DNA of 52,859 nucleotides from a virus (taxonomy: Duplodnaviria; Caudoviricetes), in the IMG/VR virus record IMGVR_UViG_3300027816_000137, positions 1 to 52,859 of that record, one strand, 5' to 3'. The notes below the pieces were generated by a model that did not search any database, had not been told where the DNA came from, and saw only the letters and a program-made list of their open reading frames with translations. The translations under genes were made by a program, and so were the position numbers. Positions 2-40,894 of the stretch are shown one piece after another. How positions within the stretch are numbered: position 1 is the stretch's first letter; each line of letters begins with the position of its first letter.

Positions 2-3000
2 CTTATTCGTGATAGTGAATACGTTACAAGGCTTCAGGGAGACCCATTGTATGATAATCTTACTAAGGAGCAATTAGAGGATGAGGCATTGGCTACAGCG
101 ATAGGTGACAGGGGTGAGAGGTTTGTATTTGAGTCTCAGAGAGAAGGATTCAGAGGATGGATGACGAGAATGCTGCGTAAGCTTGCTCAATATGCAGGGA
201 TATTTAACCTATCTAATAACGAGCTTCGTGCATTGGATTTAGATACTTATTTGAATATGGTGAATGCCAGCTTGCTTGCTGGTCAGCCATTGACAAGAGA
301 ATCTATCAGGAGTTCTACTCCGTCTGGGTTTATGGCTAAGATGAACGATGCTCAGGTTCAATCTCTGACTATCTTGGCTCAGAACTACTTCGATAGAGCT
401 ATAACGAAAGGACGTGATTTAGAAGCTGCTAGAAGAGAGGCTCTGTCTGAACTTAGTGTATTTGTGATAAATAAGTACATGGGTAAGAGCAACTTCGAGG
501 ATTTGATAGGTGCTCTTGATGGTATAATTGAAAGCGTTTCAGCAGAACAGAAAGAAAAGGTTATCCAACAAAAGAAAACTGAAAAGCTAAACCAAGCGTT
601 TAAGTCAACAGAAGTTCAGGGCATAGTAGGAAGTGCTAATCAGGAGGCTTCAAGACTGGCACAAGGTAAGGTAAAAGCTGCTGATGCTGCTGAGCAAGTT
701 ACCAAGATGGTAAAGGATGGCATACAGAAGATGTATGACGATAAGAAGGGGCCTGCCGGAATATCTTGGATTAATATGATGAGCCTTGCTCCATCTATAG
801 CTGCTGATGCTATAATGGCTGCCTATCCTCAGACCAACAGAAGAAGTCTGTTTAATGAGGATATGGTGATTATGACTACTGGTCAATGGATTCGCAATGC
901 TGTATCTAATCAGGTACGTGCTATAAAAGATGTAGAGAAGCGTACAGATGCTATTATAGCTGCTGTAAAAGATATATTCAAACAGATGACTGAAGCGTAT
1001 GGGGTAAACGTTGAGTTGTCCCCTCGCAAGGTAAATGCTATAATAGCTGAGATTGAGTCTGGAGTATTCAACCGTTCTGATGTAATGTCATCTGTAAGTG
1101 ATACGGCAGATGCTATCTCTAAGATACTTGAAACAGAATATAGGAAGAAGCTAATAGAGCAGTCAGCTACATTGATTGATAAGATAAAGCAAAAAGCTTC
1201 TAAGGCTAAATATGGTGCTTCTGACTTGATGACTAAGGCGATGCAGATAGTAGCTATAGACTTGGGTGCTTGGAGAAACAGCAACGCTACGCTTGAGGAT
1301 ATAGCCTCTTTCAATGGAGCTTTAAATGATGTGTTGGGAGGTGATTTAGCTCAGTTTGATTTTGCTATTCAGAAAGCAACTGGTATTGTAGCTGACAATA
1401 ATGTAAAGGTAGAAAACGAGTATAAGAGCTTGACAGACAAGATGAACCGAATGATTAAAAAGGCTGGGAATCTTGACTTGTCGGACTATGCTTCTATAGT
1501 AGCTTTTAAAAAGGCTATGGATGATGTTGCTGAAAGGAAGGGTAATATGGCTCTGTTTACTGCTCAGCAGATGACGGAGATACAGCAGAAGTACGCTCAA
1601 ATATTAACGTCGCTTCCGGCTGGTAAGACCATTGATGATATAGCTAATGAGTTAGAGAATGAAATATCTAATGAGTTAAACGCTAAGGTGAATATTCTTT
1701 CAGCAGACCTCACTTCAGAAGCTTCTTCTGATGTTAGAACTAAGGTGAAAAATCCTTTGCTTTATCATCAATTATTGTCATTATCTAAGCTGTTAAAAGG
1801 AGACGGATATTTAGATAGTTTAAGTGCGAAAGATAAGCTGTCATTAATCAATGCTATTGATGGCATTATGACTAATGGGAACTACAACTACGATGTATAT
1901 AACGAATACATAAAGGCTAAGAAGTACTTCCTTAAAAAGAATATGACTAACTGGGCTAAATCTTTAGCTAAAAACAGACGTTCTTTAAGCGCCCCTGGAT
2001 TAACAGGATTGGTTACTAGCAAGTTCAAGAACTTCTTCAGAGCCTTTACAGATGTAGAGGGGACAACTCCTTCAGCAGAACTTATAGCCGATAACTTCGA
2101 TATACTCAGATTGCATTCTATGGATGTGGAATTGTTTAATGGTAGAGGCAAAGCTGGGTATGATATGTTTGATATGGGATTTTTGGAGAGAGAGATATTT
2201 GCTCCGATGGCATCAGGTGTTGATGGAGCTGTAAACAAGACTCAGGCTAAATTACAGAACCTTCAGGACGCTATGATTCTGCTTGGTGATAAGTCAAACA
2301 GAGCTGTAGTTAAAAAGGCATTAAGAGGTCTTAGAGAACAGTATGGTGTTGGCTCTTCATTAAATTTCAGAAGACTTGCTGCAATGTTCAAAAGAGGCTC
2401 TAATGAAAACTTATACGTAGAGATTTCTACTAGGATGGCATCTATTATAGCTCATCAGATAGACCATATATCAAACCTGAGAGAAGACCAAGTAGCTGAT
2501 GATATGATTCTGAAAAGAAACATATTAGACGGTATTGATGAGGATAAGAAAGAAAATCTTACTATGGCTAAAAGGTATGGTAAACTTGGAGGCTTGTCTA
2601 CGCTTACTGGAAAATATAACGAGTTACTTGATGCGATAGCTTATTCTGCTTTGACAAATAATGGTACTACAACATTAGCAGGATTAAATGAGCAGGAGTT
2701 GCTTGATAAGTTAACTTTATCACAGCGCAAAGCATTGACATCATGGAGGTCATTCATAGATGCCAATAAAGATTTGGTAGAGTCTTCCATGATTATCAAT
2801 GGTAACACCAAAGCGCTTATCAAAAACTACTTCCCAAGAAGGGTTGCTCAGGTAGACGATGTGACAACCATAGCTGACTACGAGGAATACATAAATAGCC
2901 AATTCGAAAATGTAGGATTGTCTAAGGGTCAGATAATGGAGCGTACAGGTAATGCTGGAAGACTAGACCTTAATGGTAATAAGGTAATATTAAACAACCT

Positions 3001-5011
3001 TAAGTCTCTTAATCTTCTAAATCAAATGAAGCCTTACATTGATTACATTAAGGCTATTGGAGAAAGTGTACAGGAGCTTAAAGATATGGCTGCTGAAAAT
3101 CAGGATGAAGCGATGAAGAGGCAGCTTAATTTCGCAGCTGCTTATGCAGAAGGTGTCCAGATTACTATAAAGAGAAGATTAGATAACTCATTGCTTAATG
3201 GAGATAAAGCAGTAAACCAAAACTTCAGTTTCTTATTTAAAGCAGTATCAGTATCTCAGAAGTTTGCTGCTAATATGTGGCTTATATCTACAATGAGACA
3301 GCTTGGTTCTGACTATCCTGCGAATATATTAAAGACATCTGCTGCGTTGGCGTATGCTAATAAGACTGATAAGTTACAGACGTGGAGATTGTTGTCGCCA
3401 AGTAAGTCATCTGTAAAAACTTCTAAAGGTAAGTTTTACTGGGATGACTATGTGAAGATTGCAGAACTAACAGGTTCTCCTGTTTACCGTACCGTTTCTA
3501 TGTACTCAGATAACTTCCTGTATGATTACAGTAAAACACCTGAGCAGGCACAAAGAAAGCAAAGGGTTATGTCTTGGCAGGATATGGCTGTAAAGAAGCA
3601 AGCTTGGATGGAGAGATTCGAAGGTGCTTTTGAAAGGCTTACTGAAGAATCATTTGACCATCAGGCATTTAGCGATGAAAGGGGAGCTTACAGGGCAATG
3701 TTCATGGAAGCTGTAGAAACGGCATCCAAAGCTGCTGATTCTACTATTGACAGACAATTTGGTTTGCCATCATTTGCAAGACAGCCATTGAGGGTTAACC
3801 CATTTGTTCCATTCTTTGGAAGACCTATTAGATATTTAATAAATACATATCTACCAGGTAATTTAGGTAAATATATAACAATACCTAAGACAAATCCATT
3901 TACGTTCATTACAGGGTTTATGATGGGTTATCCATCTATACAGTTCTCTTTGTTTAGGAACTATATGAAACTCGCGTTCTCTAGTACAAGTGGTTTATCT
4001 GCACAAAGTAGGGCAAAATATATTTCTCAAGCTCTTACAGAAGCCTATATCCCTACATTTGCTTATGGTTTAAGTAGGACGTTTTTTGGAATGCTTATGG
4101 CTAGTGCCGGATATGCTGTATATAGTGCGGCTGGAGATGAGGATGAGGAGGAAAAAATGTTCAAGGAAATGGAGCAGCAAAGTTGGTGGGAAAGGCAACT
4201 TAGCAAGTTTAAGTTACAAATGAGAGAAAGTGAAGAAAAAGTATTTGAGAATATTATAAACTCTCTTTCTGCCAACGTTATAGACCCTCAGCAGACATAT
4301 TTTGCTAGAATGGTAGGAGGATTTATGCTGTTTAATTTATGGAAAAAGGAAGCTATCCTTGCTATGGATAAGAGGGAGGTTGAAGAGACTTATGAGTTTA
4401 ATGGTCAAATGCTTACAAGCACCAGAAAAATGACCAAAGAGGAAAGGAGTGCTATGGGTAAAAAGATTAAGCAGGATGAAAGTTGGTGGTGGAATACATT
4501 TAACGTAAGGCCTATAGAGATTTATGGTGGAGAGGAATATGAGAATGCTGTAAGGAAGTATGACATAGGATGGGCAGCAGGAGATGCTACCAAAGGATGG
4601 GAGACCTTGTTTGAGTCAATAGGCGGATTCTCCGAGATTCATAAGACAGCAAGTTCTGTAATGACTACTTATGACTTGTGGAAGGCTCTTGACGAGAATC
4701 AGAACATAAAGAAGGATGAACTGCTTTTGGCTTCTATCCTTAAGGGGTATGGATTGATATTTGCCAACTTTATGCTTGGCGGTAAATACGGATGGACTGC
4801 CAGCTTATTTAGTGGCGATGCTACTAAGCTTTCTAATACCATCATAAGGGATTTAGACAAGCAGAACAAAAGGCACGAAAAAGAACTGCGCGATAAGGAG
4901 AAAAAAGGCTCAAGTGGTGGCGGAGGAATGTATAAGACTGAAGGCAAACGAAAGGGTATGTATGGAGGCGGAAGAAGAAATAAGGGGATGTATGGTGGTG
5001 GAAGACAATAA
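2..5011 (+). CDS. Giant virion-associated (ejected/internal, polyvalent-type) protein, 5'-truncated by the window edge
   Basis: Frame is open from position 2 (>1670 aa) and predicted largely alpha-helical. EDEALATAIG near the start resembles the helix after a zincin HExxH motif in large phage proteins. The C-terminus has GMYGGG repeats. Lies upstream of the structural genes. Confidence 0.6.
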   Translation, partial: LIRDSEYVTRLQGDPLYDNLTKEQLEDEALATAIGDRGERFVFESQREGFRGWMTRMLRKLAQYAGIFNLSNNELRALDLDTYLNMVNASLLAGQPLTRESIRSSTPSGFMAKMNDAQVQSLTILAQNYFDRAITKGRDLEAARREALSELSVFVINKYMGKSNFEDLIGALDGIIESVSAEQKEKVIQQKKTEKLNQAFKSTEVQGIVGSANQEASRLAQGKVKAADAAEQVTKMVKDGIQKMYDDKKGPAGISWINMMSLAPSIAADAIMAAYPQTNRRSLFNEDMVIMTTGQWIRNAVSNQVRAIKDVEKRTDAIIAAVKDIFKQMTEAYGVNVELSPRKVNAIIAEIESGVFNRSDVMSSVSDTADAISKILETEYRKKLIEQSATLIDKIKQKASKAKYGASDLMTKAMQIVAIDLGAWRNSNATLEDIASFNGALNDVLGGDLAQFDFAIQKATGIVADNNVKVENEYKSLTDKMNRMIKKAGNLDLSDYASIVAFKKAMDDVAERKGNMALFTAQQMTEIQQKYAQILTSLPAGKTIDDIANELENEISNELNAKVNILSADLTSEASSDVRTKVKNPLLYHQLLSLSKLLKGDGYLDSLSAKDKLSLINAIDGIMTNGNYNYDVYNEYIKAKKYFLKKNMTNWAKSLAKNRRSLSAPGLTGLVTSKFKNFFRAFTDVEGTTPSAELIADNFDILRLHSMDVELFNGRGKAGYDMFDMGFLEREIFAPMASGVDGAVNKTQAKLQNLQDAMILLGDKSNRAVVKKALRGLREQYGVGSSLNFRRLAAMFKRGSNENLYVEISTRMASIIAHQIDHISNLREDQVADDMILKRNILDGIDEDKKENLTMAKRYGKLGGLSTLTGKYNELLDAIAYSALTNNGTTTLAGLNEQELLDKLTLSQRKALTSWRSFIDANKDLVESSMIINGNTKALIKNYFPRRVAQVDDVTTIADYEEYINSQFENVGLSKGQIMERTGNAGRLDLNGNKVILNNLKSLNLLNQMKPYIDYIKAIGESVQELKDMAAENQDEAMKRQLNFAAAYAEGVQITIKRRLDNSLLNGDKAVNQNFSFLFKAVSVSQKFAANMWLISTMRQLGSDYPANILKTSAALAYANKTDKLQTWRLLSPSKSSVKTSKGKFYWDDYVKIAELTGSPVYRTVSMYSDNFLYDYSKTPEQAQRKQRVMSWQDMAVKKQAWMERFEGAFERLTEESFDHQAFSDERGAYRAMFMEAVETASKAADSTIDRQFGLPSFARQPLRVNPFVPFFGRPIRYLINTYLPGNLGKYITIPKTNPFTFITGFMMGYPSIQFSLFRNYMKLAFSSTSGLSAQSRAKYISQALTEAYIPTFAYGLSRTFFGMLMASAGYAVYSAAGDEDEEEKMFKEMEQQSWWERQLSKFKLQMRESEEKVFENIINSLSANVIDPQQTYFARMVGGFMLFNLWKKEAILAMDKREVEETYEFNGQMLTSTRKMTKEERSAMGKKIKQDESWWWNTFNVRPIEIYGGEEYENAVRKYDIGWAAGDATKGWETLFESIGGFSEIHKTASSVMTTYDLWKALDENQNIKKDELLLASILKGYGLIFANFMLGGKYGWTASLFSGDATKLSNTIIRDLDKQNKRHEKELRDKEKKGSSGGGGMYKTEGKRKGMYGGGRRNKGMYGGGRQ

Positions 5012-6149: not shown

Positions 6150-8720
6150 ATGAGATTATTATTATTAGTTGTCTTTTCGTTTATTTCGTTTGTGGCATTT
6201 AGCCAAGCCCCTCCTATGGCGATAGGTGGAAATCAAGGTATTAGTGTAAAGCGTATTCTTGCTCAGGACTGGATGAGTGTGCCTATTATGGCTGATACTC
6301 CTGTTGCTCCATTAACTGGTTCAGGATGGCCTGGTAAGGGTTATTTAGTATTTGTTGCTCAGAATCCTGATTCTGTTTGTGTTGGGTGTCCACCTGCCGA
6401 TACTTCTCTTTGGGAATACACAGGAGCTAGATGGAAGCGTGTTGGTATGGACTATTTAACTAAGCTTGTATATGGTGGAGATGTAGGTCGTCAGACAAAT
6501 AGGAGATATTTTGTAACTCCTTATGCAGCATTTATAAACGGAAATTATTATACTACTATTAATAATACAAATGTAACTACAGCTGCTAAAACAGCGGATA
6601 GTACCTCTCGTATTGATGTTATTGTTATCACTACTTCTGGTCCAACTGTTAAGGTTGGTATTCCTAATAAGATACCATTTAAGCCACCTGTTGCTGGCGA
6701 TGAAATAGAATTAAGTACGATATACTTTCCTCCATTTGATACAACAGCTAAATTTATCCCATCAACTGCTATAGGGGTTACTAATATATTTAGAGTGGAA
6801 GGGAGGGATAGCATCTATTTCAGCATAGATACAGTTACATTAGCTATAAAGGATAGCATAGGTATATCTAAAAACGATACTGCTACTATGCTTAACAACT
6901 ATAAGTTTACGGCTGCTAATGGGTTAACTAAGGATAGTACTGTATTTAGATTGGGTGGCAGTTTGAATCAGAATACTAATATCAACTTAAATAATAGAAG
7001 ATTATCTTTCGTCAGTGCTGCTGGTGATACTTCTTTAAGAATAACAACACAAGGCAGACTTTTATTAAATACGACAGATACTACATCTAATCACATATTT
7101 TACTCTAATGGTAGAAGTAGGATATTAAGTTTAGAAGTAACTCAAGGAGATAATGCAGGTAGGACTGGTCAAGGTATAAGGATTGATGGAACTGATAGAA
7201 CGTTTGGATTCCAGGGTTCTGGTGGATTATTTGCTACTGATATGTTTAAATACTCAACATGGGTTAACGATACATCTACTGTATCTCTAGGCTCTTCCCC
7301 TACCGTAGCTAGGAATATAATATCAATTTATACAGGATTTTCTAAACTAATTAGTTGTGGTGCAAGTAGTGATACTACAAGAGCTAATGTTTTAAATATA
7401 GCTCCTAGGTATGTATTCAATTGTGATTCATCAAGGAATCTTGTTAGGGGAATATATTACAATCCGTCAATTGTAAATATAAATAGAACAAATCACGTAG
7501 CATACGAGAATACAACTGGGACAAATCTATTGAACTCTGTTAGCGGTAGCACAAGAATAGGGTATAATACATTTGATACTACTTACAGGCTAGATGTCAA
7601 TGGTGGGGTAAAAACTGATTCTGTTATTGTTGATGACCTATATGCTAAGTTTGGAAGATATTTAGGTGATGGTTCTACTCCTTTTGCTCCTATAGAATTT
7701 AGAGCTACCTCCGGCAACAGAGCTAGGATAGATTTAAGACCAGCTAGCAATGGTGGATGGAACTCAAACTGGTATGGTGCTATAACACATAACGGGCCTG
7801 AGACAGATATATTGGCGGCTAACTATGGCAGCTTATATCTTGGAAGTTCTTTTTGGTCGGCAGGTAGTGGTATATACCTTGGAAATACAAGAAACAACCC
7901 TTCAATGTTTATAAGAAATAATAACAATGTACTCATTGGAGATACTGCTAATACTGGGTTTAGATTTGATGTAAATGGAAGGGTTAGATTAAGAGATACT
8001 CTTACATTGTCTACTACGCCTGTAACGGCTGATACTTCCGCTAACGACTTACTAGTAATAAACTCATCTAATGGGCAGGTAAGAAGATTTACAGGCGCTT
8101 TCCCATCTGCAAATCCCACTTTGCAGCAGGTTACAACGGCTGGGAAAACAACAACAGATACAATAAAGGCAAATGCTTTCAGAATACCAACAGTTATAGG
8201 AACTGATGTAATATTTAGCGATGATGGGCAGGCGTATCGTGCTGCTTTTAAGATTGCAGGTTTTTCTGATTATGCTTGGATAAGAGGACAATATCTTGAA
8301 CTTATTTATAATGGCAATAATTCTACCCTAAGCAATATTTACTCAACGAAAAACAATAATATATACCTTCCCGATTCATCAGGAACATTAACTCAACGCG
8401 TGGCAATAAATGGCACTACATACAATACGGCTGTAAATGGTGTTGTAGATATAGGAGACTTATGGCTATCAGGTTCTGATACTCTTGACTTTCCAAGCAC
8501 TGGACACGGAAACTCAGCAGACCTTACATTTACGCTTACAGGAGCTGCCGAAGGAGACGTAGTTGCATTAGGAATACCTAACGCGTCTATAGTAGCAAAT
8601 GGGTCTTTTATAGCATGGGTAAGTGCTACTAACACAATAACAGTAAGGTTTAATAACTACGCTAGTAGTGGAAGTTCTGACCCTGCAAGCGGAACATTTA
8701 AAATTAAAGTACTTAAGTAA
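6150..8720 (+). CDS. Fibre/spike-like protein with a Sec signal peptide and many D-(S/T)-x sequons
   Basis: N-terminus MRLLLLVVFSFISFVAFS|Q. Fibre motifs xLDVNG, TLQQVTTAGKTT and LPDSSGTL. C-terminal LDFPS...VSATNTITVRFNN domain typical of phage fibre tips. Confidence 0.7.
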   Translation: MRLLLLVVFSFISFVAFSQAPPMAIGGNQGISVKRILAQDWMSVPIMADTPVAPLTGSGWPGKGYLVFVAQNPDSVCVGCPPADTSLWEYTGARWKRVGMDYLTKLVYGGDVGRQTNRRYFVTPYAAFINGNYYTTINNTNVTTAAKTADSTSRIDVIVITTSGPTVKVGIPNKIPFKPPVAGDEIELSTIYFPPFDTTAKFIPSTAIGVTNIFRVEGRDSIYFSIDTVTLAIKDSIGISKNDTATMLNNYKFTAANGLTKDSTVFRLGGSLNQNTNINLNNRRLSFVSAAGDTSLRITTQGRLLLNTTDTTSNHIFYSNGRSRILSLEVTQGDNAGRTGQGIRIDGTDRTFGFQGSGGLFATDMFKYSTWVNDTSTVSLGSSPTVARNIISIYTGFSKLISCGASSDTTRANVLNIAPRYVFNCDSSRNLVRGIYYNPSIVNINRTNHVAYENTTGTNLLNSVSGSTRIGYNTFDTTYRLDVNGGVKTDSVIVDDLYAKFGRYLGDGSTPFAPIEFRATSGNRARIDLRPASNGGWNSNWYGAITHNGPETDILAANYGSLYLGSSFWSAGSGIYLGNTRNNPSMFIRNNNNVLIGDTANTGFRFDVNGRVRLRDTLTLSTTPVTADTSANDLLVINSSNGQVRRFTGAFPSANPTLQQVTTAGKTTTDTIKANAFRIPTVIGTDVIFSDDGQAYRAAFKIAGFSDYAWIRGQYLELIYNGNNSTLSNIYSTKNNNIYLPDSSGTLTQRVAINGTTYNTAVNGVVDIGDLWLSGSDTLDFPSTGHGNSADLTFTLTGAAEGDVVALGIPNASIVANGSFIAWVSATNTITVRFNNYASSGSSDPASGTFKIKVLK

Positions 8721-8721
8721 T

Positions 8722-9090
8722 ATGTCAAACTGTATAGATAATAAAGCGACTGAGGTATCAAATGTAATAAAGGCAAATGTAAACTTTACAGTCCTAAAAG
8801 GGGATACTTTTGATGCTATAGTTACATTTAAAGACGCAGAACAAAAGCCTTTAAACTTTACAGGGGCTACTTTGCTTATGCACATAAGAAATCAAAATGA
8901 TGTCCTACAAGCTACATTGCAGTCAGCTTCAGGATTTACTATATCAAGCAACATAGTTACTTTTAATTATGTTACTACATTAGCTCCTGATGTTTATTTT
9001 TATGACTTGCAGTGTACGTTTGCTAGTGGATTAGTGAAAACACTTATTGGTGGTAAATATAAAGTACTAAAAGAGATAACAATACCATAA
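8722..9090 (+). CDS. BppU-N-like baseplate/fibre adaptor protein
   Basis: KGDTF...PLNFTGAT...YFYDLQ...KTLIGG pattern; ATG at 8722 follows the upstream stop. Confidence 0.6.
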   Translation: MSNCIDNKATEVSNVIKANVNFTVLKGDTFDAIVTFKDAEQKPLNFTGATLLMHIRNQNDVLQATLQSASGFTISSNIVTFNYVTTLAPDVYFYDLQCTFASGLVKTLIGGKYKVLKEITIP

Positions 9091-9845
9091 TGGCATTTGT
9101 AGAAGTAATAGGACAACAGCCTCTGATAGAGGTAACACCAAATGAGCCTGCCGAGGTTATCATAACTCCAGGCACTAAGGTTCAGATGAATGTGTTGGTT
9201 TCTAATAACCAAGCTACGAATGTTTCTATTACAGCTTCTCAAGGACTGCAAGGCCCTGCCGGCGCTAATGGTACAATTGGTGTAGATGGGAAAAGCGCAT
9301 ATGAAATTTGGTTGGAAGAGGGGAACACAGGTACAGAGCAGGACTTTTTGGATTCACTTGTAGGTGAAGATGGGGCTCAAGGCCCTCCCGGTGCTAATGG
9401 TGTGGCTATTGACTTTATACAGAATACAACTCCGACAGGAACAGGAACAAGCTCAATTCCTGCCGGGGCTTTGTGGTTTCATACAGATAGCGGTATTCAG
9501 TACACTTATTTCAATGATGGAAATACTTATCAATGGGTTCAGGAAACGCTTCCTTTAGGTCCTCAAGGTCCACAGGGTGCAAACGGTACCAATACTGTCA
9601 ATGGCTCAACAGCTACAACTTTCACAGGATTACTAAAGGGGAACGGTTCGGTTATCAGCGCAACTACTGTGCTTACTGAAATCGGTTTCACTCCTGAAAA
9701 TGCAGCTAACAAAGAGAATACAACTTTAGATACATCTTCTACAAAGTATCCTACTAATAATCTTGTAAAGACAAGTCTGGACAGTTTTGCTGATGATGTT
9801 GACTATGCTATTATGACAAATCAAAGAATACTATTTAATTTTTAA
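9090..9845 (+). CDS. Collagen-repeat tail fibre protein
   Basis: Gly-X-Y runs (GLQGPAGANG, GPQGPQGANG), a GKSAYEIW motif and an FTPENAANK motif. Confidence 0.75.
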   Translation: MAFVEVIGQQPLIEVTPNEPAEVIITPGTKVQMNVLVSNNQATNVSITASQGLQGPAGANGTIGVDGKSAYEIWLEEGNTGTEQDFLDSLVGEDGAQGPPGANGVAIDFIQNTTPTGTGTSSIPAGALWFHTDSGIQYTYFNDGNTYQWVQETLPLGPQGPQGANGTNTVNGSTATTFTGLLKGNGSVISATTVLTEIGFTPENAANKENTTLDTSSTKYPTNNLVKTSLDSFADDVDYAIMTNQRILFNF

Positions 9846-9848
9846 AAT

Positions 9849-10307
9849 ATGAGTTTACCTTCAGGAAGTTTAGTTAGAGTAGCCAACCAGCCGAACGGTG
9901 GTGTGGCTGTGCTTACAGGTACAACAATAGGTACATTGGGAAGTAATACGAATGGTACTACCATTGAAGCAGCAGGAACGTATGGCACAAGGATTATAAG
10001 CCTTACAGCCACTACAAATGATACTGTTACTATTAACGTGTTTATCTACATTTTAAGAGGTGGTAGTACAGTGATTCCTTTGGGGCTTGTGAACGTGCCT
10101 GTTTCAAGTGGTAACACGAATGCTGCAAGGTTTGCTGTGGATTTTCTTAATGGTACGAACATTCCAGGATTACCATTGGATAACACAGGAAGGCAGTATA
10201 TTCCACTTTTAGGTGGTGATGTACTTAGAGCAACGACTTTAGCAAACCTTTCAGCATCTACTTCTTGTTTTATTCAGGCTTCAGGATTAGATTACTTAGC
10301 TCCATAA
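9849..10307 (+). CDS. Putative structural (beta-sandwich) protein
   Basis: G/T/N-rich ORF packed into the fibre cluster. Confidence 0.6.
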   Translation: MSLPSGSLVRVANQPNGGVAVLTGTTIGTLGSNTNGTTIEAAGTYGTRIISLTATTNDTVTINVFIYILRGGSTVIPLGLVNVPVSSGNTNAARFAVDFLNGTNIPGLPLDNTGRQYIPLLGGDVLRATTLANLSASTSCFIQASGLDYLAP

Positions 10308-11131
10308 TGAACGCAAACGGACTATATAATGGATTGGAGGGATACATTGTTCCTGGCACTAATAGTGGTGTTGGGAATGGTGTGGCTAATGGTGCTTATG
10401 GAGAACCTTCTGATGCTGGGAATGTAATACCTGCTAATCCAGTATTGAATGTTGATGCTTCTAAAAAAAGTTCGTACCCAGGATTTGGAACAACTTGGTT
10501 TGACTTAAGTGGTGGTAATATAAATGGTACATTAACAAACTCACCAACTTATAATACAACAAATGGTGGTAGTTTTAGTTTTAATGGTAGTAATACTTAC
10601 GTAGAATTTGGAGACGTATTAGATTTAGGTACTAATGATTTAACAGTAAATCAATGGCTTTATCTTAATTCTTATGGTAATTATTATATATTATCTAAAT
10701 CATTATCTGGTGCTCAAAATTTTAGATTTGGTGTTAGTATTGGATTTGCATTATTAGGAATAAATGATAGACTTGGTGCTTTTATGCAAGGTAATGGAGG
10801 AAGTGATATAGCTACTTACGGTTCAACATTATTACCGCTTAATACTTGGTTTCTTGCTACATTTGTTTACACAAGAAATTCAAATATTAGAATATTTTAT
10901 AATGGTAGAGAAGAGGTGTTAAATGGAAATTCTACGATTTCACAATGGAATGGGTTAGATTTTCAATCAATAAACCCATTTAGAATTGGAGGATTAACTG
11001 CATCAAATAATACAGGTATTCAAAATGTATTTAATGGCAGAATTGCTACAACTCAAGTTTATTTTAGGTCGTTAAATCAATCTGAAATATTACAGTATTA
11101 TTTATCTACAAAATCAAGATATAATATATGA
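10307..11131 (+). CDS. Concanavalin A-like (LamG) lectin-domain virion protein
   Basis: DASKKSSYPGFGTTWFDLSG...FSFNGSN...FNGRIA..QVYFRSL pattern; ATG 10307 overlaps the upstream TAA. Confidence 0.8.
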   Translation: MNANGLYNGLEGYIVPGTNSGVGNGVANGAYGEPSDAGNVIPANPVLNVDASKKSSYPGFGTTWFDLSGGNINGTLTNSPTYNTTNGGSFSFNGSNTYVEFGDVLDLGTNDLTVNQWLYLNSYGNYYILSKSLSGAQNFRFGVSIGFALLGINDRLGAFMQGNGGSDIATYGSTLLPLNTWFLATFVYTRNSNIRIFYNGREEVLNGNSTISQWNGLDFQSINPFRIGGLTASNNTGIQNVFNGRIATTQVYFRSLNQSEILQYYLSTKSRYNI

Positions 11132-11670
11132 CATACAATTTTGACTTTAACATTGAAAAGGATGGCAGCCCTTACCTAACAAGCGATAAGGCAGCTAAGT
11201 ACATCAGCGATATTCTTTATACAAGAGTATCTTCTGACAAGCCTCTTTTAGAATCGAGAGTGGCTGAAGAGCTTGCCTCTACATTAGAAACAACTCTGTC
11301 TGAAGATGAAAGAGTGTACATCCTTAACATCCTTCTCTCTTTAGGAATAGACAACTATGCTAAGGGTAAGCTGGTTCATCCGCTTGTACAGGATGTTGTG
11401 GATGGTGTTCCTGTAATGGTTACAAGGTGGCAGTTAAGAGCGCAGCTTGCTATTCAAGGATTAGAGGCAAACGTAACAGCTGCTATCAACGCACTTCCTG
11501 ACAGCACACAGCAGGAACAGGAGTTTAAAATTAAGGCTCAATACGCTTGGGATTATTCTAACAACATCGAAAGGACAAGTCCTACTGTTACAATGATTCA
11601 GGCTGTGTTAGGACTTACAGATAGTGAGGTGGATGACATATTTGTTAACGCTTATTCAATAGACATTTAA
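11128..11670 (+). CDS. Tail-fibre-associated/chaperone-like protein
   Basis: VTRWQLRAQL...AWDYSNNIERTSP...VDDIF pattern, typical of genes next to fibre genes. Confidence 0.55.
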   Translation: MTYNFDFNIEKDGSPYLTSDKAAKYISDILYTRVSSDKPLLESRVAEELASTLETTLSEDERVYILNILLSLGIDNYAKGKLVHPLVQDVVDGVPVMVTRWQLRAQLAIQGLEANVTAAINALPDSTQQEQEFKIKAQYAWDYSNNIERTSPTVTMIQAVLGLTDSEVDDIFVNAYSIDI

Positions 11671-11972
11671 TGGCATTAGACTTCCCATCTTCACCAACGC
11701 TTAATCAGGTTTACACTTCAGGAGGTACATCTTGGAAGTGGAATGGTTATGCTTGGGATGCTTTCAATCCTTACAATACAATAAGGAGGTTTGCTCAAAG
11801 TGGCTCATTTCTTTATTGTGGAACAGCTTTGTCTGGAAGTAGTGAAAGTGCAACTGTGTGGACTATTATAAGATTAACAATAGCAGCAGATGGGAGTGTT
11901 ACAGCAACAGCAACAGCACAGCCTGCTGGTGGAACTGATTGGACAAATTTTGCCTCTCATACTTATTCATAG
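11670..11972 (+). CDS. Small virion protein
   Basis: MALDFPSSPTLNQVY...WKWNGYAW fibre N-terminal module. Confidence 0.6.
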   Translation: MALDFPSSPTLNQVYTSGGTSWKWNGYAWDAFNPYNTIRRFAQSGSFLYCGTALSGSSESATVWTIIRLTIAADGSVTATATAQPAGGTDWTNFASHTYS

Positions 11973-11991
11973 ATAATTAAATTGATATACT

Positions 11992-15914: not shown

Positions 15915-16841
15915 ATGAGGGCACTATTCCTTACTTTGTTTTTTTTATATTCGTGTAGTAAGAATGATAACGTAAGCATACCTTCAATCAAATTAGAGGT
16001 TTGCGAATTACCTAATGGCGAGTACAATACTATATTTAGGATGCCTCCTAAAGAGCAAGAAGAAGCACTTAGAAGAAGTGGTGGTAAAACAAGAGACACA
16101 GATAGAGACGGTATAACTGACGAACAAGATAACTGTCCTGTAACATTCAATCCAGACCAGTTAGACTCTGATAAAGATGGAATAGGAGATGCTTGTGACG
16201 CAACACCATTCCCTCCTCCTCCAGCATTTGGACAGTGGGTGATATTTTTAGACTTCGATGGTCAGAACATTACTAGTCCTGAATGGGTTGCTCAAAATGG
16301 AGGTAATCCTTTTTATGCAACTCCTTCTGGTCTTAGCTCAACAGAGGTTAATAATATTGTAGATTCTGTTAGAAAAGACTATCAGCAGTTTGCTCCAATA
16401 GCAATTACCACAGACTCAGCTGTTTACAACGCTGCTTCTCTTGTAAGAAGACAGAGGGTGGTGATAACAGAAAACTTTGAATGGTATTGTGGACCAACAG
16501 CTTGTGCTGGAGGTGTTGCTTATATAGGGTCTATAGAATGGGGGAAAGATGTTCCTTGTTTTGTGTTTAGTAAAGCTCTGTCATATAGACAAAAGTATAT
16601 TGCAGAAGCGATTTCACACGAAACAGGACACACGTTAGGGCTCTACCATCAAATCTTATGTACTGGAACAACTTTTGTAAGAGAACATAATTCTGGAAGT
16701 GGTACTTCTACAACAGGAAGTTCCCCAATAATGGGCAGTTCATATACAAGACCTGGATATTGGTGGATAGGGCCTAATTCATTTGGATGTTCAAATATTC
16801 AAAACGATAGTGTAATCATTAGACAAAAAGTAGGATATTAA
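15915..16841 (+). CDS. Lipoprotein zinc metalloprotease (metzincin) with thrombospondin type-3 repeats
   Basis: Lipobox LYSC; [15 protein letters not shown]...[12 protein letters not shown]; [11 protein letters not shown]; Met-turn PIMG. Confidence 0.85.
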
Positions 16842-16842
16842 T

Positions 16843-17076
16843 ATGAGAATTGATAGAGATATGCACTTAAAAGCTGGGTGCGCTATTAGCTTCGTTGCTT
16901 TGATATTCTTTGAAGCCATAAATGCTCATTGGATGTGGGTAGTTAGTGCTGTGTTCGGTGCAGCTCTTTTTAAGGAATTAAAAGATTGGCACGATTACGG
17001 AAAGTTTGATATCTTTGATGCGTTATATACCATAGCTGGAGGTAGTATCGGTATAGCACTCGCAATCTTTACATAA
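16843..17076 (+). CDS. Small membrane protein
   Basis: Three hydrophobic segments; KELKD...FDIFDALYTIAG motif. Confidence 0.6.
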   Translation: MRIDRDMHLKAGCAISFVALIFFEAINAHWMWVVSAVFGAALFKELKDWHDYGKFDIFDALYTIAGGSIGIALAIFT

Positions 17077-17651
17077 TGAGATACATAACATTTTTATTTT
17101 TATCGCTATTTTTAGTGTCCTGTTTACTGCCAAAGAAACTTGACAAGTTCTTTGACAAGAAACCGACTTTAGCAGCAAAGAAATGCGAAGAGGTGTTTCC
17201 AATAAAGGAAACTACAGATACCGTTACTGTTATAGATTCTGCAATGATGCAAGCATATGAGATGGAGTTTGTATATCTCCACTCAATACTTGACAGCTTG
17301 TTAGGTGGTGGGGTTTCCGATTCGGTAAAACGTGAAATAGTTACCGTATTTCAGGAAAAGAAAGTTCCTGTTATCAAATATAAGTACATTACAAAGACTG
17401 TTGAAAGTACGGCAAAGATTCAAGTTATCAAGGATTCCTTAACTACTATTATTGATGAGTTAGCTGAAGATGTAAAAGAGAAGCATAACGAATACATAGC
17501 TACTTACTATGATTACACCATAGAAAGAGAAAAAGCGGAAAAGTTTAAAAGGCAAAGAAATAGCCTGTATTGGTGGCTATTGATTTTGATAGGTTTATTG
17601 TTTCGCAGACCTGTTGTAAGGGCAGCATCTAAATTAATCACTAAAATTTAA
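17076..17651 (+). CDS. Unimolecular spanin candidate
   Basis: N-terminal lipobox LVSC, coiled-coil middle, C-terminal TM (LYWWLLILIGLLF) then a basic tail; in the lysis block. Confidence 0.7.
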   Translation: MRYITFLFLSLFLVSCLLPKKLDKFFDKKPTLAAKKCEEVFPIKETTDTVTVIDSAMMQAYEMEFVYLHSILDSLLGGGVSDSVKREIVTVFQEKKVPVIKYKYITKTVESTAKIQVIKDSLTTIIDELAEDVKEKHNEYIATYYDYTIEREKAEKFKRQRNSLYWWLLILIGLLFRRPVVRAASKLITKI

Positions 17652-19642: not shown

Positions 19643-19897
19643 ATGATAGACGAAAAAGAGATTATATCACCGATAGAGTATGGTGATAATGAATTATTGA
19701 ATATCATAGACAATCAGTTGATAGTTCTTTCTACCATTGCTGATATAGCTGATTCTGAATACAGAACGTATGACGATGAGATAATAGAGATGAATGTAGT
19801 TAAAAAGAATGCTTATAGGATTATACACGCTGCTCAGAAGAAGATTCAGAAGTACATTAAAACATACGAGTTTAACATAGAAAATAACGATGAGTAA
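19643..19897 (+). CDS. Hypothetical protein
   Basis: ORF packed between the exonuclease and the endolysin. Confidence 0.55.
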   Translation: MIDEKEIISPIEYGDNELLNIIDNQLIVLSTIADIADSEYRTYDDEIIEMNVVKKNAYRIIHAAQKKIQKYIKTYEFNIENNDE

Positions 19898-38141: not shown

Positions 38142-38208
38142 ACTTCAAAGTTAGCATTAACAGCTGAAATTAAAAAATAATTTATATTGTTTTTTTGCAA
38201 CAATGTTG

Positions 38209-38269
38209 TAAATTTGTAATATCTCAAAAAGCCGTCCCCGACTTGTTTCTACTTGTCGGGCCTTTTTTT
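38209..38269 (+). promoter_or_regulatory. Rightward -7 box followed at once by a terminator-like hairpin
   Basis: TAAATTTG at 38209-38216; CCCGAC-ttGTTTCTACtt-GTCGGG then T7. Confidence 0.55.
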
Positions 38270-38334: not shown

Positions 38335-38727
38335 ATGAAAAAACTTTTTGTTTCTGTATTACTTTTAACAGCACTTGGCTCTAAAGCACAGGTGTCGCAG
38401 ATAGAGTTTACAGCAGCCGATACACTCACCAACGCAGATACCATCGTTAAAAATATTACTATTTCTAACAGCACCGAAGCTATATTGCTACAGCCTGTTA
38501 TCACTAGATTGTCGGGTACTGCTGCTGGAAAGGTAGTACTTCTGCAAAGCGTTGATGGTACTACTTTTATACGTACAGATAGTATTACTCTGTCTAATGT
38601 GGTGACTAATACAGCTTTTATCAGCAAGGTTAGCCCTGTTGCTCCGTACTACAGAATCGAGTTCATCAGCTCCGGCACAACAGCACTTATCCCAAGATTG
38701 TGGTATTACCAAAGAAAAAATAAATAA
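38335..38727 (+). CDS. Secreted beta-sandwich protein with a Sec signal peptide
   Basis: MKKLFVSVLLLTALGSKA|Q; 3 of its 4 Asp residues lie in DTL, DTI and DSI; SVDGTTF...PYYRIEF beta pattern. Confidence 0.7.
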   Translation: MKKLFVSVLLLTALGSKAQVSQIEFTAADTLTNADTIVKNITISNSTEAILLQPVITRLSGTAAGKVVLLQSVDGTTFIRTDSITLSNVVTNTAFISKVSPVAPYYRIEFISSGTTALIPRLWYYQRKNK

Positions 38728-39048: not shown

Positions 39049-40251
39049 ATGGCAGTAATATTAAAACCTAGAAGTAATAAGCAGGGTATTGTAGATACTT
39101 CTGCTGACCTAATAAAAATAGAGGGTAGAGAGAATTATACAGTACTCGTAAAAGACTTAGGGGTATTCGAGTGGGTGGTATCTGGTACTGTTGACAGCGC
39201 AAATATATTTGCTGGTAAGAACGGATTTTGGAGCAGAGTGCTTCAATCAGCTGAAGGGCTGTTAGCATATACAGCAGAAGACCAAGCTAATAAGTCAACA
39301 AATGTTATTACTGATGGAGCAAGTGATGTTAAGTATCCTTCTGTTAAGGCAACTAAAACTTATGCCGATTCATTGGTTACTGGACTTCTTGATGACAGAG
39401 GTAACTTTACTCCTGGACTTACATCTCCTGGTGCTTGGCCAACTACAGGTGGTAGCGGAACTGCTGGTGCTATTATGAAAGGTGACATTTGGTTTTGCTC
39501 TGCTAGTGGATTTATGGGTACAACAGCTGTAGTAGCTGGTTCAAGTTTTCGTGCTATAGTAGACACTCCTGGTCAAACAGCTGGAAACTGGAACGTTCTT
39601 AGTGCAGGTGCTATTACTTCAGCTACTCCTAGCTTACAACAAGTAACAGACGCAGGAGCTACTACAAATGATAGCATATTTATAAGCGGAATAAGTGGAG
39701 GTATTCTTTCTACAGCAACTACTACAGATTTTGGTTCTGCTGCTTTGATAACATTTAACTCTCAAGGTGGTGCTATAGAACTTGCTAATACAATAGGAGA
39801 TATAGCTGCAATAAGATGTCAAAATATAAATGGCAACAGAACGTATCAACTTCCTAATGCTTCAGGTACTCTTGCCCTCACCAGTGACGTTGTACTTCCC
39901 TATAAAGTGTATACAGCATCTTTAACTTTTAGTGGAACATCTAATCCAACAGTTACAGTTTATCAAAATACAATAGGAAATGGTTCTGGAGATGGTGTAA
40001 ATGATATAGCTATTACAATACAGAATTTTGGACTTTGGTTTGAAGTAAATATGACAGGTAGCACTGCATTTCCTGCTGGTAAAACTTGGATGCAACCTAG
40101 TTTGTATTTTGGAAACAGTAACTTATACAATGTTTACTTTTATAGAATGAGCAATACACAAATAAGATTTCAATCTATAGACACTACAGATAATTCAGTT
40201 AGTTTTGCAAATGGATTTTCTGTAAATTTTGAAATTAGAGTTTACCCATAA
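39049..40251 (+). CDS. Head/tail fibre protein
   Basis: YTAEDQANK, SLQQVTDAGATT, LPNASGTLAL and a YKVYTASL C-terminal domain. Confidence 0.7.
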   Translation: MAVILKPRSNKQGIVDTSADLIKIEGRENYTVLVKDLGVFEWVVSGTVDSANIFAGKNGFWSRVLQSAEGLLAYTAEDQANKSTNVITDGASDVKYPSVKATKTYADSLVTGLLDDRGNFTPGLTSPGAWPTTGGSGTAGAIMKGDIWFCSASGFMGTTAVVAGSSFRAIVDTPGQTAGNWNVLSAGAITSATPSLQQVTDAGATTNDSIFISGISGGILSTATTTDFGSAALITFNSQGGAIELANTIGDIAAIRCQNINGNRTYQLPNASGTLALTSDVVLPYKVYTASLTFSGTSNPTVTVYQNTIGNGSGDGVNDIAITIQNFGLWFEVNMTGSTAFPAGKTWMQPSLYFGNSNLYNVYFYRMSNTQIRFQSIDTTDNSVSFANGFSVNFEIRVYP

Positions 40252-40876: not shown

Positions 40877-40894
40877 ACGCATAATAGAAAACAA

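What the first reader, a model, noticed from the sequence alone, without database searches (positions are those of the whole stretch)
6150..8720. Fibre-like protein routed through Sec and loaded with host O-glycosylation sequons: a possible glycosylated virion part made in the periplasm
Seen: the protein sits inside the structural module and shares fibre motifs with the signal-less fibre at 39049 (TLQQVT.AG.TT, LP..SGTL). It nevertheless starts with a clean signal peptide cleaved before Gln. By my count 23 of 50 Asp residues are followed by S/T. Sixteen match D-(S/T)-(A/I/L/V/M/T) and six more are D-(S/T)-S, including a run of eight consecutive Asp (DTT, DSI, DTV, DSI, DTA, DST, DTS, DTT). The signal-less fibres show no such excess (2 strict sites in 627 aa, 2 in 430 aa, 4 in 400 aa). 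Established: D-(S/T)-(A/I/L/V/M/T) is the Bacteroidota general O-glycosylation sequon and is used only on exported proteins; Gln at +1 is the Bacteroidota pyroglutamate rule; tailed-phage parts normally fold in the cytoplasm. Inference: the phage exports a fibre/decoration protein for host glycosylation (and possibly disulfide formation at the Cys pairs), and it joins virions at lysis as a glycan shield or host mimic. Alternatively it is displayed on the infected cell.
Basis: partly seen in the sequence, partly recalled or inferred. Interest (0 to 1): 0.88.

Follow-up and report, generated by a model that had tools for sequence, protein, structure and literature searches.

The report
Secreted, sequon-rich phage tail-fibre protein
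A phage of Bacteroidota bacteria encodes, among its tail genes, a receptor-binding-fibre-like protein that carries a conserved secretion signal and about four times more host sugar-attachment motifs than chance, so it is probably exported and sugar-coated by the host, which is unusual for a tailed-phage part.

Summary
ORF 6150-8720 (856 aa) starts with a signal peptide (MRLLLLVVFSFISFVAFS|Q). It has 50 Asp: 23 are D-S/T and 16 are strict D-(S/T)-(A/I/L/V/M/T) sequons, against 4.1 expected (0 of 20,000 shuffles reach 16).

The signal is conserved. All 68 full-length family members of 80 start M-K/R, then a hydrophobic core, then a small residue before Gln.

The excess is specific to Asp (3.9x; Asn 1.1x; mirror motif 3). 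It recurs in modules of homologues that do not align to this protein. Inside this phage it is confined to signal-bearing ORFs (29 vs 6.4 expected) and absent from 44 signal-less ORFs (42 vs 37.8).

The protein is built like a receptor-binding protein: a "shoulder" domain, a module shared with the signal-less fibre at 39049, and a tailspike-type C-terminal beta-sandwich. Its place in the tail module is conserved in 3 related viral contigs. The terminase points to Flavobacteriia-type podoviruses.

In a cultured relative, Cellulophaga phage phi18:3, three signal-bearing proteins are annotated as MS/MS-detected structural proteins.

I judge export and host O-glycosylation likely. Virion membership is plausible but unproven. 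No paper on this was found in six searches.

The parts
6150..8720 (+). Whole ORF, 856 aa plus stop: signal-bearing, sequon-rich RBP/fibre-like protein. It starts 1 nt after the stop of the upstream gene.
6150..6203 (+). Signal peptide, aa 1-18, with predicted SPase I cut AFS|Q and Gln at +1
   Evidence: Sequence. Conserved in 68 of 68 full-length family members. Modelled as a helix.
6204..6452 (+). Conserved N-terminal region, aa 19-101. It holds the invariant PPM-x-x-GG-x-QG motif, the Cys77/Cys80 pair and the DTS sequon at Asp84.
6456..6752 (+). RBP 'shoulder' / Mtd-N-like beta-sandwich, about aa 103-201
   Evidence: pLDDT 85-94. PDB matches Z 7.0-4.7 are all RBP, fibre or TssK shoulders, then a drop to 3.5. 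29 viral-model matches at E<=1e-3.
6738..7085 (+). Run of eight consecutive Asp (aa 197-310), each followed by Ser/Thr; this is the core of the sequon-rich zone (aa 100-500 hold 11 of the 16 strict sites)
   Evidence: DSI at Asp220 and Asp235 invariant in 49 sequences
8094..8390 (+). Fibre module, aa 649-747 (PTLQQVT...LPDSSGTL), shared with the signal-less fibre ORF 39049-40251
   Evidence: BLASTP 35% identity, E 7e-6
8460..8717 (+). C-terminal beta-sandwich, aa 771-856. A very widespread C-terminal domain, 55-85% identical among very different proteins.
   Evidence: 1467 cluster representatives at E<=1e-10 for the whole-protein query; nearly all of the best 150 outside the N-domain family match only this region. 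Alignment. Fold nearest the tailspike C-terminal domains, KP32gp38 Z 8.3.
39049..40251 (+). Signal-less 400-aa fibre-like protein that shares the fibre module; 4 sequons vs 1.9 expected
38335..38727 (+). 130-aa protein with signal peptide ...SKA|Q, 3 sequons vs 0.5 expected (internal control)
17076..17651 (+). 191-aa predicted lipoprotein (...LVSC), 5 sequons vs 0.6 expected (internal control)
15915..16841 (+). 308-aa predicted lipoprotein (...LYSC), 3 sequons vs 1.0 expected (internal control)

Best explanation
ORF 6150-8720 encodes a receptor-binding-protein-like tail fibre of a tailed phage of Bacteroidota. The phage has the genome layout of Flavobacteriia podoviruses. Unlike ordinary fibres, this one is made with a cleavable Sec signal peptide.

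Shown: the signal is conserved. The protein has an RBP shoulder domain, a fibre module and a tailspike-type C-terminal domain. It sits in the tail operon, translationally abutting its neighbours. It and its relatives carry 3-5 times more D-(S/T)-hydrophobic sequons than composition predicts.

Inferred: the precursor crosses the inner membrane unfolded and is cut before Gln, which would cyclise to pyroglutamate. It folds, probably as a trimer, in the periplasm. There the host's general O-glycosylation system loads glycans on many of its 16-22 sequons, mostly in residues 100-500.

Most speculative step: when the holin breaches the inner membrane, the periplasmic glycosylated fibres meet the cytoplasmically built particles. 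They dock through the shoulder domain, so the released virions carry host-made glycans.
For: Signal: all 68 full-length family members of 80 start M-K/R, then a hydrophobic core, then a small residue before Gln; the sequence varies while the pattern stays.

Sequons: 16 vs 4.1 expected, 0 of 20,000 shuffles. The excess is Asp-specific: 3.88x against Asn 1.13x, Glu 0 sites, mirror motif 3 sites. Every one of the 89 proteins listed (P0002-P0090: 84 returned with the family, 5 that share only the C-terminal domain) is enriched, with the shuffle fraction p <= 0.005 in each. 14 non-redundant segments of homologues that do not align to this protein hold 26 vs 10.9 expected. In the window, 5 signal-bearing ORFs hold 29 vs 6.4 and 44 signal-less ORFs hold 42 vs 37.8. 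Among proteins that share only other modules, 76 signal-bearing ones give 2.51x and 50 signal-less ones 1.23x, Mann-Whitney p 6e-9.

Published rule (review PMC12871550, passages read): the motif is glycosylated in the periplasm on non-cytoplasmic proteins, is nearly fully occupied, engineered motifs are glycosylated, and the system works across species.

RBP build: the shoulder domain matches Mtd (Z 7.0), the A-1(L) fibre (6.7), the phage 1358 RBP (5.9), TssK (5.1-5.4) and the p2 RBP (4.7), with the next row at 3.5. There are 29 viral models at E<=1e-3, and the named ones are minor tail, RBP or tail-fibre proteins. The C-terminal domain matches tailspike C-termini, Z 8.3 to about 5.

Tail-module synteny is kept in L002, L003 and L004.

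Host: 88 phage records match the terminase and all 86 with a named organism infect Flavobacteriia.

Precedent: phi18:3 gp085, gp086 and gp087 have ...YS|Q...SA|Q and ...NA|Q signals and are annotated 'structural protein, experimental MS/MS proteomics'. A Chitinophagaceae contig has a signal-bearing protein with the same C-terminal domain between tape-measure/baseplate-hub genes and further tail genes. Of 69 usable viral-contig loci with this C-terminal domain, 52 have signal-like N-termini.
Against: No tool here shows export, glycosylation or presence in virions. No route is known by which a periplasmic protein joins a tailed-phage particle (my recollection; no paper in searches).

The phi18:3 proteins are not homologues. 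MS detection in purified particles can reflect co-purifying envelope material. They are sequon-poor, 3 vs 9.6 expected, P 0.009.

The relatives phi38:1 and elemoE have signal-less fibres.

In the viral-contig set, sequon enrichment does not differ significantly between signal-bearing and other proteins (1.89x vs 1.74x, p 0.051).

Several Bacteroidota signal-bearing proteins with the same C-terminal domain have no excess, so export alone does not force enrichment.

Fold matches have Z below 8, which the tool calls middling. The full-length model is poor (mean pLDDT 60).

The host is inferred, not known. The record is about 49% complete.
Confidence: 0.45

Rival explanations
1. The protein is exported and glycosylated but never joins virions. 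It is a fibre-derived envelope protein of the infected cell. It might bind or mask the phage receptor or surface glycan (superinfection exclusion, or keeping progeny from sticking to debris and vesicles), or act as an adhesin.
For: The signal, the sequons and the RBP-like distal domains fit equally well. Exported phage proteins inside tail regions are known, such as lambda Lom between tail genes (passage in PMC12309495). T5 Llp and lambda Bor are recalled examples. The same C-terminal domain ends many signal-bearing proteins on long chromosomal contigs outside phage context, e.g. the Terrimonas locus L015 with redoxin and DUF1349 neighbours. Tailed-phage assembly is cytoplasmic as far as is known.
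Against: The gene is not moron-like. It abuts both neighbours, with a 1-nt gap upstream, shows no composition break and keeps its place in the tail module in 3 relatives. It has a conserved N-terminal shoulder domain of the kind that docks RBPs onto baseplates, and variable distal modules, which is the classic pattern of a virion fibre. No anchor to the membrane or surface was found: no lipobox and no T9SS C-terminal-domain profile.
Confidence: 0.3
2. The gene has two starts. Translation from Met1 gives the exported, glycosylated form. Translation from the invariant Met23, four residues after the cleavage site, gives a signal-less cytoplasmic form that is the real virion fibre. One gene would then supply both a virion part and an envelope protein.
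For: Met23 is invariant in 49 of 49 aligned sequences. Gene callers chose it as the start in 9 of 80 family members and in this window's own record. Dual-start phage genes are known, such as the lambda S holin/antiholin (recalled). This would reconcile cytoplasmic assembly with the signal.
Against: The residues around Met23 are invariant too (PPM..GG.QG), so the Met need not be a start. The sequence before it is CCTCCT, with no purine-rich or AT-rich leader, whereas Met1 follows an AT-rich stretch. The sequon excess shows that selection acts on the exported form.
Confidence: 0.1
3. The hydrophobic N-terminus is not an export signal. It could be a buried or membrane-inserting helix of a cytoplasmically assembled fibre, and the D-S/T-hydrophobic excess could be a structural quirk of this fold.
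For: No SignalP run was possible. Fibre proteins are rich in Ser, Thr and Asp. Many sequon positions are inherited by homology.
Against: The n-h-c layout with small|Gln holds in 68 of 68 members. The excess is Asp-specific and is not mirrored. It appears in non-homologous modules. It appears in the phage's unrelated lipoproteins and secreted ORFs but not in its signal-less fibres.
Confidence: 0.05
4. The protein is a type IX secretion cargo. The conserved C-terminal domain would be a new kind of T9SS sorting domain, and the protein would be displayed on or released from the cell surface.
For: A signal peptide plus a conserved ~85-aa C-terminal beta-sandwich at the extreme C-terminus of many Bacteroidota proteins is the layout of T9SS cargo.
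Against: No T9SS C-terminal-domain model or any other NCBIfam model matches at E<=1. The domain also occurs on signal-less proteins and in genome bins labelled Acidobacteriota, Patescibacteria, Planctomycetia, Opitutus and Rhizobium. Its nearest folds are phage tailspike C-termini.
Confidence: 0.05

Closest known systems
Phage receptor-binding proteins with an N-terminal shoulder domain (lactococcal phages p2 and 1358, Bordetella phage BPP-1 Mtd) and the T6SS baseplate protein TssK
   Same: Beta-sandwich domain at residues ~103-201 (Z 7.0-4.7). A conserved N-terminal part with swapped distal modules. A place among the tail genes.
   Different: None of the matched proteins is known to me to carry a signal peptide (recalled). 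There is no detectable sequence similarity. About 80 conserved residues and a signal precede the shoulder domain here.
Cellulophaga phage phi18:3 gp085, gp086, gp087 (KC821620)
   Same: Large proteins (547, 785, 559 aa) with Bacteroidota-type signal peptides and Gln at +1. They belong to a phage that shares the terminase, capsid-region genes and GroES-like gene order with this one. The record annotates them as structural by MS/MS.
   Different: No homology to this protein. They lie before the terminase rather than after the giant protein. Sequons are depleted, 3 vs 9.6. I could not read the source paper.
Substrates of the Bacteroidota general O-glycosylation system
   Same: Signal peptide plus D-(S/T)-(A/I/L/V/M/T) sequons. 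The review states that motifs in non-cytoplasmic proteins are nearly fully glycosylated and that the motif is enriched in the phylum's non-cytoplasmic proteins (PMC12871550).
   Different: All described substrates are cellular. The word 'phage' does not occur in that review. The density here is 1.9 sites per 100 aa.
Exported proteins encoded inside phage tail regions: lambda Lom; T5 Llp and lambda Bor (recalled)
   Same: A signal-bearing protein encoded next to fibre genes (Lom: passage in PMC12309495).
   Different: Those are small barrels or lipoproteins with no fibre architecture and are not virion parts. This one is an 856-aa RBP-like protein abutting its neighbours.
Glycosylated virions of mycobacteriophages
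   Same: Phage structural proteins that carry glycans. I saw only a search listing and one abstract that mentions putative phage glycosyltransferases and capsid glycosylation; the primary study is recalled, not read.
   Different: There the phage brings its own glycosyltransferases and acts in the cytoplasm. Here no phage glycosyltransferase is needed, because the host's periplasmic system would act on an exported protein.

Membership tests
Sec / signal peptidase I substrates | N-terminal n-region with a positive charge, a hydrophobic h-region, and small residues at -3/-1 | tested here: met
   MRLLLLVVFSFISFVAFS|Q. 68 of 68 full-length homologues keep M-K/R, the core and small|Q. Judged by heuristic only; SignalP not run.
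Sec / signal peptidase I substrates | Actual translocation and cleavage | not testable with these tools
   Needs an export reporter or N-terminal proteomics.
Bacterial lipoproteins (signal peptidase II) | Lipobox with Cys at +1 | tested here: not met
   No Cys in residues 1-76.
Bacteroidota Gln +1 (pyroglutamate) rule | Gln as the first residue of the mature protein | tested here: met
   68 of 68. The rule itself is recalled, not read here.
Bacteroidota general O-glycosylation substrates | D-(S/T)-(A/I/L/V/M/T) motif in a soluble, non-cytoplasmic region | tested here: met
   16 strict sites, all after the signal. Motif definition from PMC12871550. The non-cytoplasmic location is inferred from the signal.
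Bacteroidota general O-glycosylation substrates | The host has the system | tested here: inconclusive
   The host is unknown. Terminase relatives all infect Flavobacteriia. The promoter-motif scan gave 4 vs 1.4 expected, reached by 5 of 100 shuffles.
Bacteroidota general O-glycosylation substrates | Glycan attached | not testable with these tools
   Needs glycoproteomics.
Phage tail fibre / receptor-binding protein | Fibre or RBP folds | tested here: met
   Shoulder domain Z 7.0-4.7 with a gap to 3.5. 29 viral models at E<=1e-3. C-terminal domain Z 8.3 to a tailspike C-terminus. All Z values are middling by the tool's own note.
Phage tail fibre / receptor-binding protein | Encoded in the tail module, with a conserved position | tested here: met
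Phage tail fibre / receptor-binding protein | Sequence match to a curated fibre family | tested here: not met
   0 Pfam, PHROG or NCBIfam families. Only a 99-residue module is shared with ORF 39049.
Phage tail fibre / receptor-binding protein | Present in virions; trimeric | not testable with these tools
   Needs virion proteomics or cryo-EM.
T9SS cargo | C-terminal domain that matches the type A or type B sorting-domain models | tested here: not met
   No NCBIfam model at E<=1. The domain also occurs outside T9SS-bearing phyla.
Phage moron (Lom/Bor-like) | Autonomous unit with its own signals and a foreign composition | tested here: not met
   1-nt gap to the upstream gene, overlap or abutment downstream, no GC break, conserved synteny.

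The most novel reading that the evidence does not exclude
Some tailed phages of Bacteroidota build their particles in two compartments. Heads and tails form in the cytoplasm. The receptor-binding fibres are sent through Sec into the periplasm, where the host's own O-glycosylation machinery coats them. They dock onto particles only after the holin opens the inner membrane. Virions would then leave wearing host-type glycans, without any phage glycosyltransferase. Sequon density, enriched in this family and depleted in phi18:3, would be a tunable trait under selection.
Probability: 0.35. Interest if true: 0.92.

Novelty: new variant of a known kind. Interest (0 to 1): 0.76.

Why it matters
Parts of tailed phages are held to fold and assemble in the cytoplasm. 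Bacterial protein glycosylation is rarely considered for phage particles. This report describes a conserved family of at least 80 proteins, and a wider class on at least 52 further viral contigs, of fibre-like phage proteins with secretion signals. This family and many others of the class are sequon-rich, though the viral-contig set showed no significant difference from signal-less proteins.

That suggests phages of an ecologically dominant phylum (gut, soil, ocean) expose their host-recognition proteins to the host's periplasmic glycosylation system. If the proteins sit on virions, host range, immune recognition and stability of these phages could depend on host glycan loci. Gene callers that start at an inner Met hide the signal, as happened for this window's own record.

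If the proteins stay on the cell, this is a new class of fibre-derived envelope proteins, possibly for exclusion. Either answer can be tested now with Cellulophaga phage phi18:3 and its host.

Tried and rejected
Curated families: Pfam, PHROGs and NCBIfam gave nothing for the protein. The PF26696 label on some homologues could not be reproduced or named.

Sequence searches: tblastn against 50,697 phage records found no match for the whole protein and 2 weak matches for the C-terminal domain. PDB sequence searches gave 0 hits for the C-terminal profile and one chance-level hit for the protein.

Folds: Foldseek of the full model against PDB gave nothing at E<=0.001. The weak rows were mostly fibres and tailspikes.

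T9SS reading: rejected as the main reading.

Homology to phi18:3 gp085-087: none by BLASTP. hhalign probabilities were 0.2, 13 and 0.2.

Complex prediction: residues 19-300 with the two upstream gene products gave 'no answer' (score 0.00). This is neither support nor evidence against binding.

Promoter consensus TTG-N19-TAnnTTTG: 4 matches vs 1.4 expected, reached by 5 of 100 shuffles. Not used as host evidence.

tRNAs: none found.

Protein atlas: only leads below 0.9, all viral clusters, one Mtd_N-bearing.

Viral-contig survey: the sequon difference between signal-bearing and other proteins was not significant (p 0.051). My signal heuristic misfiled some proteins both ways: L057 and L126, and P0146, P0158 and P0231.

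Rows dropped before counts. One search left out proteins under 250 aa, those not starting with Met, and members of the N-domain family. One search left out 8 loci cut at the 5' end and the 3 loci of this protein's own family. One search used only unaligned segments of at least 60 aa and removed redundancy by shared 4-mers (58 segments to 14).

Literature: searches found no paper on Sec-routed tailed-phage fibres or on phage proteins as substrates of Bacteroidota O-glycosylation. Passages read in PMC6199706, PMC8143477, PMC3338817, PMC5723332 and PMC12309495 did not bear on it beyond lambda Lom. One passage states that phage DGR targets lack signal peptides. Supplements were closed. The proteomics tables behind the phi18:3 annotation could bear on the claim and were not seen.
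Full report
WHAT IS THERE. The window is a 52.9-kb linear IMG/VR virus record that CheckV rates about 49% complete. It is a tailed phage. PHROG scans find a terminase large subunit (42562-44598), a portal (44630-47083), a capsid-region structural protein (50463-51827), tail-fibre and tail proteins (9090-9845, 11992-13875), an endolysin (19890-20507) and a leftward replication block.

ORF 6150-8720 (+) encodes 856 aa. It follows a giant protein that is open at the window's 5' end (1669 aa here, at least 2944 aa in a relative) and two small genes. Its ATG lies 1 nt after the upstream stop. Collagen-like and discoidin-domain tail proteins follow it.

Shuffles of the mature sequence expect 4.1 strict sites, and none of 20,000 reaches 16.

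The excess is specific to Asp. X-[ST]-[AILVMT] is 3.88 times expectation for Asp, 1.13 for Asn and 0 sites for Glu, and the mirror motif occurs 3 times. Pro-[ST]-[AILVMT] is also raised, 3.2 times. Eleven of the 16 sites lie in residues 100-500. The two modules shared with signal-less proteins (650-856) are not enriched.

THE SIGNAL PEPTIDE IS REAL AND CONSERVED. A word-indexed search found 150 relatives. An exhaustive HMMER search found 3126 cluster representatives at E<=0.001; most of these share only the last ~85 residues.

Eighty proteins carry the N-terminal GG-x-QG motif of this family. Sixty-eight have a complete N-terminus, and all 68 start M-K/R, run through a hydrophobic core and end small-residue|Gln (ATA|Q, AIA|Q, AFS|Q and so on). 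Nine were called from the inner Met and 3 are cut. The residues differ between members while the pattern stays, which is what a translated, selected signal looks like.

The window's own gene call on record (834 aa) starts at Met23 and so hides the signal. SignalP could not be run.

THE SEQUON EXCESS TRACKS EXPORT.
(a) Every one of the 89 proteins listed (P0002-P0090: 84 returned with the family, 5 that share only the C-terminal domain) has 3-5 times the expected number.
(b) In 14 non-redundant segments of homologues (3,422 aa) that do not align to this protein, 26 sites occur against 10.9 expected. The excess is therefore not only inherited.
(c) Within this phage, the five ORFs with signal or lipoprotein N-termini hold 29 sites against 6.4 expected. 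The 44 signal-less ORFs (12,834 aa) hold 42 against 37.8. The signal-less fibres have 2, 2 and 4 sites.
(d) Among proteins that share other modules but not the N-domain, 76 signal-bearing ones have 2.51 times expectation and 50 others 1.23 times (Mann-Whitney p 6e-9).

Against this, in 69 usable loci from viral contigs the two classes did not differ significantly (1.89 vs 1.74, p 0.051). Several signal-bearing Bacteroidota proteins with the same C-terminal domain have no excess at all. Enrichment is thus a property of particular families, not of export as such.

WHAT THE SEQUON MEANS. A 2025 review (PMC12871550; passages read) makes five points. The Bacteroidota system glycosylates Ser/Thr in D-S/T-(hydrophobic) motifs of non-cytoplasmic proteins after the glycan is flipped to the periplasm. 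Sites in the common motifs are nearly fully occupied. Engineered motifs become glycosylated. Proteins are glycosylated across species. The motif is enriched in the phylum's non-cytoplasmic proteins. The review does not mention phages. If this protein is exported in such a host, multiple glycosylation is therefore the expected outcome.

HOST. tblastn with the terminase found 88 phage records. All 86 with a named organism infect Flavobacteriia: Flavobacterium 68, Cellulophaga 15, Tenacibaculum 2, Maribacter 1, at about 28% identity. ORFs 49315, 50463 and 52047 are weakly similar to gp103, gp104 and gp105 of Cellulophaga phage phi18:3. The GroES-like gene before the terminase is shared too. The Gln +1 habit and the lipoprotein signals fit the phylum. 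A Bacteroidota promoter scan was inconclusive.

WHAT THE PROTEIN IS BUILT LIKE. No curated family matches.

The full-length model is poor (mean pLDDT 60) apart from two domains. Folded alone, residues 19-300 give pLDDT 70, with 85-94 over the core.

Residues ~103-201 form a beta-sandwich. Its ten best PDB matches are all N-terminal 'shoulder' domains of phage receptor-binding proteins or fibres, or of the T6SS baseplate protein TssK: Mtd Z 7.0, cyanophage A-1(L) fibre 6.7, phage 1358 RBP 5.9, SPP1 gp22 5.7, HFTV1 fibre 5.6, TssK 5.1-5.4, p2 RBP 4.7. The next row falls to 3.5. Against predicted viral structures, 29 matches reach E<=0.001, and the named ones are minor tail, receptor-binding or tail-fibre proteins.

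Residues 649-747 align to the phage's own signal-less 400-aa fibre-like protein (35% identity, E 7e-6).

Residues 771-856 form a beta-sandwich nearest the C-terminal domains of phage tailspikes: KP32gp38 Z 8.3, then phi297 gp61, LKA1 gp49, APK14 gp49, HK620 and R2 pyocin fibre at Z 4.5-5.9. All these Z values are middling by the tool's own note.

The family shows the classic fibre pattern of a conserved N-terminal third and swapped distal modules. The gene's place in the tail module is kept in three related viral contigs at 67-72% identity.

THE C-TERMINAL DOMAIN IS A SUBJECT OF ITS OWN. It is 55-85% identical among very different proteins and always sits at the extreme C-terminus. It occurs in genome bins labelled Bacteroidota, Ignavibacteria, Acidobacteriota, Patescibacteria, Planctomycetia, Opitutus and Rhizobium. 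Most carriers have signal-like N-termini.

Some carriers lie in phage tail modules. L007, for example, sits between tape-measure and baseplate-hub genes. Others lie in ordinary chromosomal context (L015). T9SS sorting-domain models do not match.

A CULTURED PRECEDENT. In Cellulophaga phage phi18:3 (KC821620), gp085, gp086 and gp087 (547, 785 and 559 aa) begin MKNKITIIMILMSISFGYS|Q, MKKTIYILSILLLTISGVSA|Q and MKHTFSIVLFFILSIGLNA|Q. The record annotates each as 'structural protein, annotation based on experimental MS/MS proteomics analysis'. Signal-bearing proteins have therefore been detected in purified particles of a phage of this group.

Four caveats apply. They are not homologous to the protein studied here. 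No family could be assigned to them. Particle preparations can carry envelope contaminants. I could not read the source paper or its tables.

Their sequons are depleted, 3 against 9.6 expected, P 0.009, the opposite of this family. The relatives phi38:1 and elemoE have signal-less fibres, so the trait is patchy.

HOW IT MOST LIKELY WORKS.
Shown: a conserved signal, an RBP-like build, a tail-operon position and a sequon excess tied to signal-bearing proteins.
Inferred from established knowledge: Sec export, SPase I cleavage before Gln, folding in the periplasm, and O-glycosylation at many of the 16-22 sites.
Speculative: the fate of the protein.

I put 0.45 on the reading that it is a virion fibre that docks through its shoulder domain once the holin joins the periplasm and the cytoplasm. 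I put 0.30 on an envelope-resident role (receptor masking, exclusion or adhesion), 0.10 on a dual-start gene that gives both a cytoplasmic virion form (from the invariant Met23) and an exported form, and 0.05 each on a non-export artefact and on T9SS cargo.

A complex prediction of the N-terminal part with the two upstream gene products gave no verdict and counts for nothing either way.

NOVELTY. Six full-text searches and the passages read found no description of Sec-routed fibres of tailed phages. They found no description of phage proteins as substrates of the Bacteroidota O-glycosylation system either.

Known neighbours of the idea are lambda Lom (an exported protein between tail genes), mycobacteriophage virion glycosylation by phage-encoded enzymes (listing and one abstract only; the primary work is recalled), and streptococcal phage tail proteins that end up on the cell surface (recalled).

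I file the protein as a new variant of a known kind: a phage RBP/fibre with a secretion signal and host-glycosylation sequons. If the two-compartment assembly is true, it would be a categorically new assembly route.

EARLIER NOTES OF THIS SCAN. I tested that independently and it holds.

Noticed in passing
window 8460-8717; loci L005-L049 and L054-L133: The last ~85 residues form a domain that is 55-85% identical among thousands of otherwise unrelated proteins, always at the extreme C-terminus and mostly on proteins with signal peptides. It occurs in genome bins labelled Bacteroidota, Ignavibacteria, Acidobacteriota, Patescibacteria, Planctomycetia, Opitutus and Rhizobium. Such conservation suggests a shared partner or sorting role. 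No Pfam or NCBIfam model covers it.
   Followed up: partly
L050 (KC821620) 7892-13584: Cellulophaga phage phi18:3 gp085-087 have clear signal peptides with Gln at +1, are annotated as MS/MS-detected structural proteins, and are depleted in the O-glycosylation sequon (3 vs 9.6 expected, P 0.009).
   Followed up: partly
window 2-5011; L003 1-8835; L053 38852-49936: A giant protein precedes the fibre genes: open at the 5' end and 1669 aa here, at least 2944 aa in a related contig. A 3694-aa 'structural protein' occupies the corresponding last place in the structural gene block of Flavobacterium phage elemoE. It ends in a Gly/Arg/Lys/Met-rich tail (GMYGGG repeats). No PHROG match.
   Followed up: no
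window 6216-6218 (Met23): The Met four residues after the predicted cleavage site is invariant in 49 of 49 aligned homologues and is the start that gene callers often choose. It may be an alternative start that gives a signal-less isoform.
   Followed up: partly
window 40853-41539: A GroES-like gene sits just before the terminase, as in phi18:3, phi38:1 and elemoE. elemoE also carries a GroEL gene.
   Followed up: no
window 38187-38216: A match to the Bacteroidota promoter consensus (TTG-N19-TAnnTTTG) lies about 120 nt upstream of the secreted 130-aa ORF that opens the rightward late block. The motif count in the whole window is not significant (4 vs 1.4).
   Followed up: partly
L051 (NC_021796) 14185-14784: phi38:1 gp084, next to the endolysin, has a hydrophobic N-terminus ending in Cys and 3 sequons vs 0.3 expected. 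This is the same pattern as the exported small proteins of this window.
   Followed up: no
L007 6942-8258: A Chitinophagaceae-binned contig with tape-measure and baseplate-hub genes carries a 438-aa signal-bearing protein with the same C-terminal domain inside its tail module. It is a second, unrelated phage type with the same trait.
   Followed up: partly
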